A stretch of 64,000 nucleotides of DNA from a virus: positions 1-64,000 of the IMG/VR virus record IMGVR_UViG_3300044645_002525; one strand, written 5' to 3'. Position numbers and translations under genes: made by a program. The notes under the pieces are model-generated. The model saw only the letters and a list, made by a program, of their open reading frames with translations. It did not search any database and had not been told where the DNA came from. Positions 23,150 to 26,374 of this stretch are shown piece after piece. The stretch's first letter is position 1. Each line of letters starts with the position of its first letter.

Positions 23150-23206
23150 ATATTAACTTTACCAACAAACATCGTTTATGATTTGTACAGTTATTCAGGA
23201 CTGACT

Positions 23207-23740
23207 ATGGAGAGGCGCTGGCATTACGTCTACTACTCGTACGAGGAGTGGGGCCGAGGCTATATTGGCAAGCGCTCATCCAAGGTTCCGCCAAGCCAAG
23301 ATCCATACATGGGCAGCTTTAAGGACAAGACTTTTAAGCCTACAAATAAAATTGTTCTCGGTGTTTTTGATACGGCAGAAGAGGCGTTAAGACACGAAGT
23401 AATACTTCATGATTTTTACGAAGTAGGCAAAAATCCGCATTTTGCAAATCAAGCCAAGCAGACTTCATCTCGCTTTTGCTGGCATGGTGATTTGACAAAA
23501 GTGCTTACGCCAGCCGAAGAGCAGCAGCGCCGTTCAAAAATCTCGAAGAGTCAAAGGGCTGGATCGAAAGGTTTCTTCTATAAGCTTGTGTCCCCCAGTG
23601 GCAGTATTCATGTGACAATCAATTTAAGGCAATTTTGCAGAGACCATAAATTAACGCATCAAAATATAGACAAAGTTGCAAAAGGTGAACGCCGCCACCA
23701 CAAGGGGTGGACGGCTAAACGGATGGAGCTAAAACGATGA
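23207..23740 (+). CDS. GIY-YIG-like free-standing homing endonuclease
   Basis: HYVYYSYE...YIGKR...YMGS...E motif; C-terminal LRQFCRDHKL...HHKGW DNA-binding module; oriented against the structural operon. Confidence 0.75.
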   Translation: MERRWHYVYYSYEEWGRGYIGKRSSKVPPSQDPYMGSFKDKTFKPTNKIVLGVFDTAEEALRHEVILHDFYEVGKNPHFANQAKQTSSRFCWHGDLTKVLTPAEEQQRRSKISKSQRAGSKGFFYKLVSPSGSIHVTINLRQFCRDHKLTHQNIDKVAKGERRHHKGWTAKRMELKR

Positions 23741-24021
23741 TGCTGCTCAAGAAAAGTGATGTGGATGTGCTTAAGATGCCTCATCAGCAAGCTCGTCTCC
23801 TGATTGCTTCTCGCATTAAAGAAGCCCGCCTTAATAGCGGGCTTTCTCAGAAAGACGTAGCTCAAGCTTTGCATACAAGTCAAAGCTCTTATTCACGAAT
23901 GGAACGCGCTGAACTGGCTCCGGATTGCGTGCAAATTCGCACTCTCAGTGGTCTCTATGGAATAAGCGTATTGTGGCTGATGGGCTATCCCTCGTTCATT
24001 CTCAACACGCGAAGGGATTAA
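23737..24021 (+). CDS. XRE-family HTH regulator
   Basis: RIKEARLNSGLSQKDVAQAL..SQSSYSRME...WLMG. Confidence 0.85.
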   Translation: MMLLKKSDVDVLKMPHQQARLLIASRIKEARLNSGLSQKDVAQALHTSQSSYSRMERAELAPDCVQIRTLSGLYGISVLWLMGYPSFILNTRRD

Positions 24022-24329
24022 TCCTCGTCCTCGTCATCATCACGAAGGTCGCGAAGTTGATCTTCAATGCCCTCCATAATGTATGACTTCGCCATTGCCT
24101 CAATTTCAAACGTAAGAAACTTAGTCGGATCGAAATGAGGGTCGGGCTTTTCGTAGACGCTCATCACATAGATGTGAGTTTCATCGAGACGACCATTCTT
24201 GAAGCATTGCTTCTCCACTAGTTCCCATCGCGAAGTATTGCGGTGTTCGTTAGCAGAAAGAATGGCCAAAGCCTGCATCACGCCAATACCTTCATCTTCT
24301 TGTTCGATGACGCGTACGTATTCGCTCAT
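24018..24329 (-). CDS. Hypothetical acidic protein
   Basis: 103-aa ORF overlapping the upstream gene's stop. Confidence 0.6.
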   Translation of the reverse strand: MSEYVRVIEQEDEGIGVMQALAILSANEHRNTSRWELVEKQCFKNGRLDETHIYVMSVYEKPDPHFDPTKFLTFEIEAMAKSYIMEGIEDQLRDLRDDDEDED

Positions 24330-24685
24330 TGGCCTGTATTACGACTTTCTACCATCTTAATGATGCGTTTAGCCCATGCCCTCCCGGCATCTCCTCCCCA
24401 TAGCAGCCAAGCAATATATCCAGCATCGTTCTCTCCACCGCTTTTATTCTTCTCATGCCGAGAGAAGAATGCAGACATACGCTTGATTGTGGCATAGCTA
24501 ATCTTGCTGCCACCAGCCAAATCACCAGCCCTGGCAACGCCGCTACCAATACCTTGTTTGCCTGCCTCCTGCGTTGTTAAGCCGCCCTTGCCGTGCTTCT
24601 TGCGCAGTTCCAACCCTCGACGGGCAGCACTTCGCACGGCGGCGGGAGGGGAGAAACTCTCAGCATCTCCCCTCAGCGCTTTTTT
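24326..24685 (-). CDS. Small basic phage domain (RMSAFFSRH...IAWLLWGGDAG), probably reached by -1 frameshift from the upstream ORF
   Basis: Frame is open upstream of the GTG at 24637 (ALRGDAESFSPPAAVRSAARRGL) back through the A AAA AAG site; no ATG/GTG/TTG further upstream in this frame and no SD before the GTG. Confidence 0.7.
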   Translation of the reverse strand, partial: KKALRGDAESFSPPAAVRSAARRGLELRKKHGKGGLTTQEAGKQGIGSGVARAGDLAGGSKISYATIKRMSAFFSRHEKNKSGGENDAGYIAWLLWGGDAGRAWAKRIIKMVESRNTGQ

Positions 24686-24927
24686 CCGCAGCTCCCATCC
24701 ATTTCCTCTTCTTCTTCCTCTTCGCCAATCATCTCCTTAAAGAAGCCCATATAGTATTCGTCGCTCATGTCTTCTTTTGGCTTGCGCGTCATGCCAGCTT
24801 CAGACAAGGCAATTGCTAGTGCTTGCTTCGGACTCTTCACGGCTTCGCCACTGCTGCTCTTCAGCTTGCCGCTTTTGTATTCGCGCATCACCTTGGCAAT
24901 TTTTGCCTGCTTTTCCTTCTTGGTCAT
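24673..24927 (-). CDS. Small protein, DUF6496-like
   Basis: KIAKVMREYKSGKLKSSSG..VKSPKQALAIALSEAG signature. Confidence 0.75.
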   Translation of the reverse strand: MTKKEKQAKIAKVMREYKSGKLKSSSGEAVKSPKQALAIALSEAGMTRKPKEDMSDEYYMGFFKEMIGEEEEEEEMDGSCGKKR

Positions 24928-24954: not shown

Positions 24955-25671
24955 TCAATGGATGAATCCTATCGGAGCAGTGGCAATGTTCATGCCAGGG
25001 AAAAGCTTGTCACGATACAAAACCATGCCAGTGATGAGACGCTCGGCAATAAAGGCCAACGCTCGCTTGTCATAGCCTCCAATACGAAGAAACTGCTCTT
25101 CGTGCTTATGCCAAATGGGAGCAAGCGCGACAAACAGAGCGCTCATGAATTGCTTGTATTGCACGTTGCCTCCTCGTGCCATATTGCAGCCAATAAAGCT
25201 ATTTTGCTTCCAAATGGCATCAATTTCTTCGCGAGAGAAAATCCAACTCCCGGAATCGGCAAGTTCTCTAGTGATGACAGGAGCGTCAAAAGCTGAATGT
25301 CCACCATAAAACTGCTGCTCCAGCGTGCAATTGAACAGTGCAGGCTCGGGAAAATACAACGTATTTTCGTCGTACCATTGATCATTTGGCTCTAGCCAAT
25401 TACGCCTGTATTGCGCATTGCCAATGTTTTTCTCATTCGCATTGAGAATCATCCAAGAAATACAAGACAGCTCTCCCCATCGGCTATTAAGCCGCGAAAG
25501 GGAAGCATTCTCATCATCAAACACATAGCCCTGTAAGCGGAGCGCTTCACGCTCCTCGCTCGACAAAGTATATGCTCCTCCCATAATGGGAACAATGGAA
25601 GAGCGGGCTTCATAGCGCACTTTCTCACCAGGAATGCACACGGCATAGATGGTGCAATCAGACGGCTGCAT
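24955..25671 (-). CDS. Putative glycosyltransferase (DUF4422-like GT-A)
   Basis: DDEN..S.LN.RWGELSCISW...IGNAQYRR...CNM...RALAFIAERL pattern. Confidence 0.65.
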   Translation of the reverse strand: MQPSDCTIYAVCIPGEKVRYEARSSIVPIMGGAYTLSSEEREALRLQGYVFDDENASLSRLNSRWGELSCISWMILNANEKNIGNAQYRRNWLEPNDQWYDENTLYFPEPALFNCTLEQQFYGGHSAFDAPVITRELADSGSWIFSREEIDAIWKQNSFIGCNMARGGNVQYKQFMSALFVALAPIWHKHEEQFLRIGGYDKRALAFIAERLITGMVLYRDKLFPGMNIATAPIGFIH

Positions 25672-26374
25672 ACACTTTCCTCGCGGACCAAAGCTCGTTG
25701 TAATTGTTCACACCTTTAGCGCCAAGACCAGTCAAGTCCCCGCCTCCTGCAGGCTTGCTCCAAGCCATGATCGTACCATCAGGCAAGACAAACCCTCTGT
25801 TCTTTTGACCATACGTGGGAGTGAGTTCCAGATAGTCGCCATAGACAAAATTGGCTTGACTTCCGTTAATAGCAAGCGCCTTGCCCAACAATGTTGGACC
25901 AGTGGGGCACAGTGGCGTGATGCCATAGTATTGCTCTTTGCAATTTGCCACAATCATTTCAATGGCAGTCTGCAAAGCTTGGTTATCAGGCTTGGAATAG
26001 AGCACAGTCGTAGCACACGCCCAACTGGTATAACTAAAGCGTTGAATATCGCGAAAGGCCAAGAATTCAATGCGGTCGCCAAGATCCACTGCATTAAAAG
26101 CCCTCACGCCAACATCAAAATACCAGCCACCAAGTTTGTTTAACAAGCAAAACCGCCCAAGATCTGCTTTGTAAGAAAATGGCACCAAGCAATCATATGC
26201 CCACACCACTTCTTCACCATAGTTCTCTGCAATAAAAGCACGCAGTGAAGCATCGCTGTAAATGACATGCTCCGCACTAGGGAAGCACGCATCAATGGTG
26301 CCAGTGGCGTGCTTAAGAAATGGGCTCAGCTCTTCCGTTGGATCAGTGGAAAGAAAGATTTGTGAAATCTGCAT
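25658..26374 (-). CDS. Glycosyltransferase, GT32/OCH1-like DxD family
   Basis: YKADLGRFCLL...GGWYFDVG and TGPTLLG motifs. Confidence 0.85.
   Translation of the reverse strand: MQISQIFLSTDPTEELSPFLKHATGTIDACFPSAEHVIYSDASLRAFIAENYGEEVVWAYDCLVPFSYKADLGRFCLLNKLGGWYFDVGVRAFNAVDLGDRIEFLAFRDIQRFSYTSWACATTVLYSKPDNQALQTAIEMIVANCKEQYYGITPLCPTGPTLLGKALAINGSQANFVYGDYLELTPTYGQKNRGFVLPDGTIMAWSKPAGGGDLTGLGAKGVNNYNELWSARKVYAAV

What the first reader, a model, noticed from the sequence alone, without database searches (positions are those of the whole stretch)
24326..24927. Unexpected programmed -1 frameshift fusing two small head-region domains
Seen (minus strand): GGA AAA AAG CGC TGA, with the heptamer A AAA AAG at 24685-24679 one codon before the stop. 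A perfect 9-bp stem GAGGGGAGA/TCTCCCCTC starts 4 nt downstream and GGGAG lies 6 nt upstream. The -1 frame reads KALRGDAESFSPPAAVRSAARRGLELRK..., restoring an N-terminus that the GTG start would cut off. Known: A AAA AAG with a 3' hairpin and upstream SD is the dnaX/IS-type signal. Inference: a DUF6496-like protein is made in short (84 aa) and long (about 200 aa) forms at a fixed ratio.
Basis: partly seen in the sequence, partly recalled or inferred. Interest (0 to 1): 0.7.

Follow-up and report, generated by a model that had tools for sequence, protein, structure and literature searches.

The report
Conserved -1 frameshift in cyanophage head gene
A lake cyanophage and many of its relatives join two small head-region protein domains by making the ribosome slip back one base at a conserved slippery site; this recoding signal is not annotated in the closest sequenced phage, but it is an ordinary kind of signal.

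Summary
On the minus strand an 84-aa DUF6496 ORF ends GGA AAA AAG CGC TGA. A 9-bp hairpin starts 4 nt after the heptamer. The -1 frame continues into a conserved 117-residue domain.

Comparison with about 200 related viral-contig loci (121 distinct junction sequences) strongly supports a programmed -1 ribosomal frameshift:
- 89 junctions keep the -1 arrangement, although ORF1 is only 44-99% identical to the window's.
- All 89 carry an in-frame X_XXA_AAG heptamer: A_AAA_AAG in 72, G_GGA_AAG in 15, C_CCA_AAG in 2.
- The spacing from heptamer to a GGGG/CCCC stem is invariant, and one stem pair covaries.
- 31 relatives are fused in frame. In these the stem has decayed (mean hairpin energy -5.9 versus -15.8 kcal/mol).
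- 45 of the 89 have no start codon for the second ORF. That ORF is under strong purifying selection (dN/dS about 0.04).
- 67 contigs with the window's exact context all have six A's, so assembly error is excluded.

The upstream GGGAG is not conserved. The ratio of short to long product was not measured.

The downstream domain has no Pfam model. Elsewhere it is fused to portal, prohead protease, MuF, ParB, 2H phosphoesterase and InPase domains, so it is probably a protein associated with the phage head.

Verdict: real, and a new member of a known kind.

The parts
24326..24927 (-). Whole recoded gene. Zero-frame ORF1 plus the -1-frame extension gives an 84-aa short product and a 200-aa trans-frame product.
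   Evidence: Translations. Natural in-frame homologues of 183-207 aa with the same two domains.
24673..24927 (-). ORF1, zero frame, stop included. It has an N-terminal DUF6496 domain followed by an acidic poly-Glu linker ending ...MDGSCGKKR*.
   Evidence: PF20106 at E 5.4e-9, 36.7 bits against a cut-off of 24. An in-frame +6 nt poly-Glu length variant occurs in a strain contig. The AF2 model of fused homologue P0008 folds residues 1-67 confidently.
24679..24685 (-). Slippery heptamer A_AAA_AAG in the ORF1 register
   Evidence: The same columns hold A_AAA_AAG (72), G_GGA_AAG (15) or C_CCA_AAG (2) in 89 distinct -1 loci. In at least 9 loci the -1 frame opens only 10-13 nt before the ORF1 stop, which pins the shift to the heptamer.
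24673..24675 (-). ORF1 stop codon TGA, one codon after the heptamer. It overlaps the Arg codon AGG of the -1 frame and the base of the stem.
   Evidence: Among the 89 distinct -1 junctions the stop is one codon after the heptamer (TGA or TAA) in 83, directly after it (TAG) in 5, and lost in one (L023).
24646..24674 (-). Downstream stimulatory hairpin. The 5' arm is 24674..24666 (GAGGGGAGA), the 11-nt loop is 24665..24655, and the 3' arm is 24654..24646 (TCTCCCCTC).
   Evidence: Fold. Core pairs are kept in 89 of 89 -1 loci. Pair 5:21 covaries (A-U 34, C-G 26, U-G 6, G-U 2; 7 of the 75 distinct rows unpaired). 83.9% of cells are paired against 52-65% when slid. Mean hairpin MFE is -15.8 kcal/mol in -1 loci against -5.9 in fused loci.
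24326..24679 (-). The -1-frame part (ALRGDAESFSPP...SRNTGQ*). It is a conserved all-helical domain of about 105 aa with no Pfam model, the ORF2 domain.
   Evidence: Translation. phrog_2859 positions 164-265 of 740, E 1e-16. 3731 50%-identity clusters at E<=0.001. dN/dS 0.038 among -1 loci. AF2 pLDDT is mostly above 90 for residues 90-202 of P0008.
24692..24696 (-). GGGAG, a Shine-Dalgarno-like motif 6 nt upstream of the heptamer. It is present here but is not a conserved part of the signal.
   Evidence: Alignment A1 columns 2-6 vary (GGCTC, GGTTC, GCCTC, TCTTC and others) because they are Gly/Ser codons of the linker.
24635..24637 (-). GTG that ORF callers take as the start of a separate 103-aa ORF2. 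It is a conserved Val codon inside the domain, not a conserved start.
   Evidence: ORF list. The Atlas record starts at this residue. Val codon usage is GTA 41, GTG 25, GTT 23. Pro and Val upstream of or at this position are invariant or nearly so in the wider family.

Best explanation
This is one gene decoded in two ways by a programmed -1 ribosomal frameshift.

Proposed mechanism:
- Ribosomes translate the DUF6496 domain and its acidic linker in the zero frame.
- With AAA in the P site and AAG in the A site (A_AAA_AAG), they are stalled by a G+C-rich hairpin 5-6 nt downstream, and possibly by the nearby stop codon.
- A fraction of ribosomes slip back one base. They then read GCG CTG AGG GGA... 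and add a 117-residue helical domain, giving a 200-aa two-domain protein.
- The rest terminate two codons later and give the 84-aa DUF6496-only protein.

What is shown here, by sequence and comparison: the signal anatomy, its conservation, its covariation, the loss of the stem in fused relatives, the lack of an independent start, and purifying selection on the -1 frame.

What is inferred:
- That slippage occurs on the ribosome, and at what rate.
- That the A-site AAG is slippery because the host decodes it with tRNA-Lys(UUU), as established for dnaX in E. coli.
- The function. The gene lies in the head module, and the second domain is fused elsewhere to portal, prohead protease, MuF, ParB, 2H phosphoesterase and InPase domains. 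The long form is therefore most likely a head-associated protein, possibly packaged and injected. The frameshift would set how much DUF6496 is made with and without that module.
For: 1. The anatomy is exactly as described.
2. Of 121 distinct related junctions, 89 need -1, 31 are in frame and 1 needs +1. ORF1 identity to the window ranges from 44 to 99%, yet the arrangement is kept.
3. All 89 have X_XXA_AAG in the ORF1 register, with three different X (A 72, G 15, C 2). G_GGA_AAG and C_CCA_AAG contain only three A's.
4. The alignment of the 89 junctions has no gaps, so the heptamer-to-stem spacing is fixed even where the stop codon moves or is lost.
5. Stem: GGGG/CCCC is kept in 89 of 89, one pair covaries, and 83.9% of cells are paired against at most 65% when slid. 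In fused relatives, which encode the same R-G/D-D...FSPP peptide, two core pairs hold in only 14 and 18 of 31, and mean MFE is -5.9 against -15.8 kcal/mol.
6. 45 of 89 have no ATG, GTG or TTG in the ORF2 frame from its upstream stop to 15 codons past RGD. In at least 9 loci the -1 frame opens only 10-13 nt before the ORF1 stop.
7. ORF2 dN/dS is 0.038 in -1 loci and 0.062 in fused loci.
8. Natural fused proteins exist, including P0008 with ...SCGKKALRGDAESF.
9. All 67 contigs with the window's context, from 59 sample ids, have A6. Contigs from four runs bridge the site without an indel.
10. The shift site lies in a disordered linker between two confidently folded domains (pLDDT below 50 at residues 72-87).
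11. Domain partners and gene position point to the head (PMC5512222).
Against: - There is no protein, ribosome-profiling or reporter evidence, so neither the efficiency nor the existence of the trans-frame product in cells is shown.
- No RNA run was available.
- The upstream SD-like stimulator typical of dnaX and IS911 is not conserved.
- The inner three pairs of the predicted hairpin are kept in only about half of the loci.
- Part of the stem conservation could come from the conserved peptide RGD...FSPP and from the overlap with the stop codon, although the fused controls argue against that.
- The loci were collected with three chosen queries, best 80 each, so 89:31 is not a population frequency.
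- The host's tRNA-Lys set was not checked.
- The function of both domains is unknown. No solved structure resembles them.
Confidence: 0.9

Rival explanations
1. These are two separate genes. The second domain is made by independent initiation, at the GTG at 24637 or a non-canonical codon, or by termination-reinitiation after the ORF1 stop. The heptamer would then be incidental.
For: ORF callers and the S-CBS4 GenBank record annotate two ORFs, gp018 and gp019, the latter starting 35 nt after the gp018 stop. The ORF1 stop lies next to the ORF2 frame, an arrangement that can support translational coupling.
Against: The GTG is a Val codon that is GTA or GTT in 64 of 89 loci. 45 of 89 have no canonical start at all in that stretch. 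Starting at the Val would remove the invariant SFxPP..V part of the domain. This rival does not explain the in-frame X_XXA_AAG kept in 89 of 89 with three variants, the fixed spacing, or the stem that decays in fused relatives.
Confidence: 0.05
2. RNA polymerase slips on the A-run and adds one A to a fraction of transcripts. The long protein would then come from edited mRNA rather than from ribosomal slippage.
For: The commonest site contains 6-8 consecutive A's. Transcriptional slippage on A/T runs is established in some bacterial and IS genes.
Against: 17 distinct loci use G_GGA_AAG or C_CCA_AAG, which have only three A's. By established knowledge, runs of six A's are shorter than those usually needed. 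The strict X_XXA_AAG codon register, the conserved downstream hairpin and its fixed spacing are features of ribosomal slippage, not polymerase slippage.
Confidence: 0.03
3. This is an assembly or sequencing indel, or a decaying gene. The true gene would be in frame (seven A's), or the second ORF would be a dead remnant.
For: Rare relatives are in frame at an equivalent K-rich junction: L066, and proteins P0008 and P0113. One locus (L201) has a different one-base change that needs +1.
Against: All 67 IMG/VR contigs with the window's exact context, from 59 sample ids, have A6 and none has an inserted base. Four independently assembled runs agree, one at k-mer depth 30. The -1 arrangement persists across ORF1 divergence down to 44% identity. 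ORF2 dN/dS is 0.038 at dS about 1.7.
Confidence: 0.02

Closest known systems
IS3-family (IS911, IS150) orfA-orfB and E. coli dnaX -1 frameshift signals
   Same: A_AAA_AAG slippery heptamer with AAG in the A site, and a downstream stem-loop at about 5-6 nt. In the IS elements the zero-frame stop closely follows the heptamer and the product is an OrfA-OrfB fusion made alongside free OrfA. These properties are from established knowledge of these systems.
   Different: The proteins are unrelated and the gene is a phage head-module gene. The upstream Shine-Dalgarno-like stimulator that contributes in dnaX and IS911 is present in the window but not conserved across the family. In dnaX the shifted frame terminates at once, whereas here it adds a whole domain.
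Phage lambda G/GT-type tail assembly chaperone frameshift (conserved in dsDNA tailed phages)
   Same: It is a conserved phage structural-module -1 frameshift that yields a short and a C-terminally extended protein. 15 relatives here use G_GGA_AAG, which from my own recollection is the lambda G-T heptamer.
   Different: The location is the head module, between the minor-head or glycosyltransferase genes and the protease/capsid genes, not between the major tail and tape-measure genes. There is no sequence similarity. Here a strong hairpin is conserved. By established knowledge, lambda G-T works without a required downstream structure.
Phage T7 gene 10A/10B capsid frameshift, and frameshift-appended accessory domains on phage structural proteins
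   Same: A head-related phage gene gives two C-terminally different products by -1 slippage. The extension is a separate, dispensable-looking domain, as shown by relatives that are organised differently.
   Different: A different protein family, a different slippery site and a different stimulator. Here the recoded protein is a small accessory protein (DUF6496), not the major capsid protein.
Phage-type polyvalent proteins (Iyer et al. 2017, PMC5512222)
   Same: The -1-frame domain is found fused to the same partners that define phage-type polyvalent proteins predicted to be packaged in the head: 2H phosphoesterase, InPase, DdrB-like ParB, MuF and portal.
   Different: The protein here has only two small domains and no recognisable enzyme. 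The domain itself matched no LPD or other Pfam model. Packaging is inferred, not shown.

Membership tests
Programmed -1 ribosomal frameshift site (bacterial/phage X_XXY_YYZ type) | Slippery heptamer X_XXY_YYZ in the register of the upstream frame, inside the overlap of the two frames | tested here: met
   A_AAA_AAG at 24685..24679 in the ORF1 register. 89 of 89 distinct -1 loci have X_XXA_AAG in register. The overlap is as short as 10-13 nt in at least 9 loci.
Programmed -1 ribosomal frameshift site (bacterial/phage X_XXY_YYZ type) | Downstream stimulatory RNA structure at a fixed short distance | tested here: met
   A stem of 8-9 bp lies 4-6 nt after the heptamer. The alignment is gap-free, the core pairs hold in 89 of 89, and one pair covaries. 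The stem decays in fused relatives. This is computational evidence only.
Programmed -1 ribosomal frameshift site (bacterial/phage X_XXY_YYZ type) | The downstream frame is coding, is conserved and cannot be expressed on its own | tested here: met
   dN/dS is 0.038. 45 of 89 loci have no start codon. In-frame fused homologues exist.
Programmed -1 ribosomal frameshift site (bacterial/phage X_XXY_YYZ type) | The trans-frame protein is actually produced at a reproducible efficiency | not testable with these tools
   No RNA or proteome data were available. It needs a reporter assay or mass spectrometry.
dnaX / IS911-type tripartite signal | Upstream Shine-Dalgarno-like stimulator conserved with the heptamer | tested here: not met
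   GGGAG lies 6 nt upstream in the window. The corresponding columns vary freely among the 89 junctions.
Tail assembly chaperone G/GT frameshift | Gene pair located between the major tail protein and tape measure genes | tested here: not met
   The neighbours are glycosyltransferase-like genes upstream and a DUF2213 head protease/scaffold gene downstream. The same slot sits beside minor head and capsid genes in S-CBS4 and in a Vibrio phage.
DUF6496 (PF20106) | Match to the Pfam model above its gathering score | tested here: met
   ORF1 residues 4-44 score 36.7 bits against a cut-off of 24, E 5.4e-9. Fused homologues carry a precomputed PF20106 annotation.
Phage-type polyvalent protein (Iyer et al. 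2017) | Several effector or enzymatic domains in one polypeptide, in a virion-gene context | tested here: inconclusive
   The context is the head module. The second domain shares partners with polyvalent proteins. This protein has only two small domains of unknown function.

The most novel reading that the evidence does not exclude
The second domain is a head-targeting or head-interior module, the same one appended to portals, prohead proteases and MuF proteins in other phages. The frameshift would then act as a stoichiometry device. It would split DUF6496 into a free cytoplasmic pool and a pool tethered into the capsid, possibly injected with the DNA. Lineages have toggled repeatedly between 'all tethered' (in-frame fusion) and 'split' (frameshift), about 10 changes on the ORF2 tree, using whichever X_XXA_AAG heptamer was at hand.
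Probability: 0.2. Interest if true: 0.7.

Novelty: new member of a known kind. Interest (0 to 1): 0.55.

Why it matters
- It adds a well-supported recoding family, apparently undescribed, to the short list of conserved phage frameshifts (tail chaperone G/GT, T7 10A/10B). This one lies in the head module of a widespread group of lake and estuarine cyanophages related to Synechococcus phage S-CBS4.
- It corrects the annotation of S-CBS4 gp018/gp019 and of hundreds of metagenomic viral contigs, where the second ORF is called truncated from an internal Val codon.
- The family is a natural experiment. Close relatives carry either an in-frame fusion or one of three slippery heptamers, and the hairpin is kept only where slippage is needed. 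That makes it useful for benchmarking frameshift predictors and for studying how such signals arise and are lost.
- It flags a very common viral domain with no Pfam model (3731 clusters at 50% identity) that travels with portal, protease, MuF and anti-defence-type enzyme domains.

Tried and rejected
- RNA evidence: no RNA holder was listed among the sequencing runs, so expression and transcript editing could not be examined. All runs laid were contigs, not raw reads, so minor A7 variants in the population cannot be excluded.
The DNA behind the in-frame proteins P0008 and P0113 could therefore not be read. A pattern scan of viral contigs was used instead.
- Function by structure: sequence search of solved structures found nothing. 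Foldseek against PDB had no hit at E<=0.001. VIA-align wide gave at best Z 4.5, which is within noise for helical proteins. NCBIfam gave nothing. The Atlas gave only unnamed viral clusters, plus a DUF6321 lead at 0.88 that was not followed.
- Literature: no paper mentions DUF6496. None was found describing a frameshift in S-CBS4 or in cyanophage head genes. One search failed on syntax.
- Whole-region fold significance: the z-score of -1.45 for 121 nt is not significant alone, so the case rests on comparison.
- Upstream SD element: rejected as a conserved component.
- Host tRNA-Lys repertoire: considered, but no practicable route with the tools at hand.
- Tree of ORF2: about 10 changes between fused and frameshift states against about 27 for shuffled labels. 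I treat this as indicative only, because the alignment is 330 nt, synonymous sites are saturated and recombination is likely.

Full report
**1. What is in the window**

On the minus strand, ORF1 (24927..24673, 84 aa) begins with a DUF6496 domain (PF20106, E 5.4e-9, 36.7 bits against a gathering score of 24). It runs through an acidic poly-Glu linker and ends ...GGA AAA AAG CGC TGA.

- The heptamer A_AAA_AAG occupies 24685..24679 in the X_XXY_YYZ register of ORF1.
- The stop is at 24675..24673.
- Four bases after the heptamer a perfect 9-bp stem forms, GAGGGGAGA (24674..24666) with TCTCCCCTC (24654..24646), around an 11-nt loop.
- GGGAG lies 6 nt upstream of the heptamer (24696..24692).
- The -1 frame is open from about 24740. 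After the heptamer it reads ALRGDAESFSPPAAVRSAARRGLELRK... to a stop at 24326. The slipped product would be 200 aa.

The window is a complete 77-kb IMG/VR viral genome with terminal repeats. Its nearest isolate is Synechococcus phage S-CBS4, about 69% identical in nucleotides over this region. The DNA is held by many lake-water metagenome runs.

**2. Related sequences: split and fused forms**

A protein search with the -1-frame part gave 712 hits of 64-207 aa. They fall into two groups.

- Proteins of 183-207 aa carry DUF6496 and the second domain in one frame. Most have a linker such as EEEEEDRGDAESF. P0008 reads ...SSCGKKALRGDAESF, exactly the predicted trans-frame junction.
- Proteins of 121-141 aa start in the out-of-frame overlap, for example LRKKALRGD... 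or MPWLSDFFKKKKELRGD.... This means their genes are split like the window's.

I fetched about 200 loci from IMG/VR with three queries, plus S-CBS4. I placed ORF1 and ORF2 on them with tblastn. Among 121 distinct junction sequences:

- 89 need a -1 shift;
- 31 are in frame;
- 1 needs +1 (L201, which looks like a single-base deletion).

The sample was chosen by query, so these are not population frequencies.

**3. The signal is conserved and varies the way a frameshift signal should**

ORF1 identity to the window falls to 44% in the 89 -1 loci. Even so, every one has a heptamer of the form X_XXA_AAG in the ORF1 register at the same position: A_AAA_AAG in 72, G_GGA_AAG in 15 and C_CCA_AAG in 2. 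These are interchangeable canonical slippery sequences, and two of them contain only three A's.

The alignment of the 89 junctions has no gaps over 59 columns. The distance from heptamer to stem is therefore fixed. It stays fixed although the zero-frame stop sits one codon after the heptamer in 83 junctions (TGA or TAA), directly after it in five (AAG TAG), and is lost in one (L023).

In several loci the -1 frame opens only 10-13 nt before the ORF1 stop. For example, a -1-frame TGA directly precedes the heptamer in TGT GAA AAA AAG. The shift can therefore only happen at the heptamer.

**4. The hairpin**

- In the -1 loci the core GGGG/CCCC pairs are kept in 89 of 89.
- Pair 5:21 covaries: A-U 34, C-G 26, U-G 6, G-U 2, and 7 of the 75 distinct rows unpaired. 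Here a synonymous Gly codon change on the 5' side is matched by a Ser/Ala change on the 3' side.
- 83.9% of cells form standard pairs, against 52-65% when the partners are slid by 1-3 columns. No shuffle out of 500 reached the observed pairing or covariation score.
- The inner three pairs predicted for the window are kept in only about half of the loci, so I do not count them.

The best control is the fused class. It encodes nearly the same peptide (R-G/D-D-A-E-S-F-S-P-P) but uses CGN or AGA Arg codons and GAY at the second position. Two of the core pairs hold in only 14 and 18 of 31. The mean energy of the 29-nt hairpin is -5.9 kcal/mol, against -15.8 in the -1 class. The stem is maintained only where slippage is needed.

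The upstream GGGAG is not conserved. Those columns are Gly/Ser codons that vary freely.

**5. Rivals**

*Independent initiation.* The GTG at 24637 that ORF callers use (S-CBS4 gp019 is annotated the same way) is a conserved Val codon that reads GTA in 41 loci, GTG in 25 and GTT in 23. 45 of 89 loci have no ATG, GTG or TTG anywhere from the upstream stop of the ORF2 frame to 15 codons past RGD. The residues upstream of that Val (SFxPP) are invariant or nearly so in the wider family.

*Dead gene.* ORF2 has dN/dS 0.038 among -1 loci at dS about 1.7. That is at least as constrained as in fused loci, where it is 0.062.

*Assembly error.* A scan of IMG/VR for the window's context, allowing one optional extra base after the A-run, found 67 contigs from 59 sample ids. 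All lack the extra base. Contigs assembled independently from four runs bridge the site unchanged, one at depth 30. The only indel nearby is an in-frame +6 nt in the poly-Glu tract, which fits ORF1 being read in frame there.

*Transcriptional slippage.* It cannot work on the GGGAAAG or CCCAAAG sites. It also explains neither the codon register nor the hairpin.

**6. What the protein is**

An AlphaFold2 model of the natural fused homologue P0008, built with an 89-sequence alignment, has mean pLDDT 87. It shows two separately folded, mostly helical domains (residues 1-67 and 90-202) joined by a disordered linker (residues 72-87, pLDDT below 50). The shift site lies in that linker. No solved structure resembles either domain.

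The second domain has no Pfam or NCBIfam model but is very common. 3731 clusters at 50% identity match at E<=0.001, with the domain at the N-terminus, the C-terminus or the middle of proteins of 115-1547 aa.

In 72 such proteins the partner domains are:

| Partner domain | Proteins |
|---|---|
| 2H/LigT phosphoesterase | 12 |
| DUF5824 | 10 |
| InPase | 8 |
| XkdF-type prohead protease | 4 |
| Portal | 2 |
| Acb1-like | 2 |

Single cases include capsid, DdrB-like ParB, MuF, Mu-like protease, LPD29, ChaB and others.

Structure search in the viral library gives the same picture: prohead protease, portal, Mu gp29, ParB, HAD and Hva1-TUDOR proteins. Iyer et al. 2017 (PMC5512222) describe 2H, InPase, DdrB-ParB, MuF and portal fusions as phage-type polyvalent proteins predicted to be packaged into the head.

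In Vibrio phage 382E49-1 a gene with this domain plus a ParB-N domain sits between the minor head protein and the scaffold and capsid genes. In the window and in S-CBS4 the gene sits between glycosyltransferase-like genes and the DUF2213 protease/scaffold and capsid genes.

I infer that the long form is a head-associated accessory protein. That inference is untested.

**7. Comparison with known systems**

In mechanism this is a textbook bacterial-type -1 frameshift, closest to IS3-family orfAB sites and to dnaX:

- A_AAA_AAG heptamer;
- nearby zero-frame stop;
- downstream stem-loop;
- fusion product.

It lacks a conserved upstream SD element. It shares the G_GGA_AAG variant with the lambda tail chaperone site (that identity is from my recollection), but it is not a member of that family, because the position and the proteins differ.

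I found no description of it in the literature searches. The closest isolate annotates two separate hypothetical proteins.

**8. Verdict**

The 'fixed ratio' and the biological role remain to be measured.

It is a new member of a known kind. It is of moderate interest for recoding and phage-annotation specialists. It is made more useful by the natural series of fused, A-, G- and C-heptamer variants, and by the roughly 10 inferred switches between fused and frameshift states (indicative only).

The scan had noted the same stretch once before, from an overlapping window (e1-6098611), with the same reading.

Noticed in passing
window 24326-24679 (-); proteins P0121-P0270: The -1-frame domain (consensus SFxPPxxVRxAAxRGLELRxKxGRGG...IAWLLWGGDAG) has no Pfam or NCBIfam model, yet it matches 3731 clusters at 50% identity. 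It is a promiscuous module fused to portal, prohead protease, MuF, ParB, 2H phosphoesterase, InPase and other domains. It is a candidate new domain family of phage head or polyvalent proteins.
   Followed up: partly
L201 (IMGVR_UViG_3300042453_003401), junction near 1230-1260: This is the only locus that needs a +1 rather than a -1 shift. It reads ...TGC GAA AAA AGC GCT AAG GGG..., as if one G before the A-run had been deleted. It may be a mutant, a sequencing error or a decaying copy.
   Followed up: no
L023 (IMGVR_UViG_3300043442_000893), 1486-1544: The heptamer and hairpin are kept, but the zero-frame stop is lost (CGC CGA instead of CGC TGA). The short product would be 13 codons longer. 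This shows the adjacent stop is usual but not obligatory.
   Followed up: no
L066 versus L180; protein P0008: Rare in-frame relatives differ from split relatives by one extra A inside the slippery run (A7 against A6 in the L066/L180 pair). Fusion and frameshift states can therefore interconvert by a single-base indel at the heptamer itself.
   Followed up: partly
window 24702 (+ strand coordinate), run X14: A strain variant carries an in-frame 6-nt insertion (TTCTTC on the + strand, two extra Glu) in the poly-Glu linker of ORF1. Linker length varies widely among relatives.
   Followed up: no
window 24664-24672 (-), peptide RGD at the start of the second domain: R-G-D (or R-D-D) directly precedes the conserved domain in both split and fused relatives. 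Earlier notes of this scan (e1-6098598, e1-6098610) propose R/K-x-D as a head-protease cleavage code. Not tested here.
   Followed up: no
window 23183-24021 (+): Two genes lie on the opposite strand between the recoded gene cluster and the DUF2213 protease/scaffold gene. One has a weak match to a homing-endonuclease NUMOD-like domain (PF22083, below its cut-off). The other is an XRE-type HTH regulator. S-CBS4 has a transcriptional regulator in the same place.
   Followed up: partly
window 24018-24329 (-): A 103-aa acidic ORF overlaps the end of the recoded gene by ATGA. It has no Pfam, PHROG or NCBIfam match. S-CBS4 has an equivalent gene (gp020).
   Followed up: no
window 24955-26374 (-): DUF4422-like and DXD-motif glycosyltransferase-like genes lie directly upstream of the recoded gene, inside the head module.
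   Followed up: no
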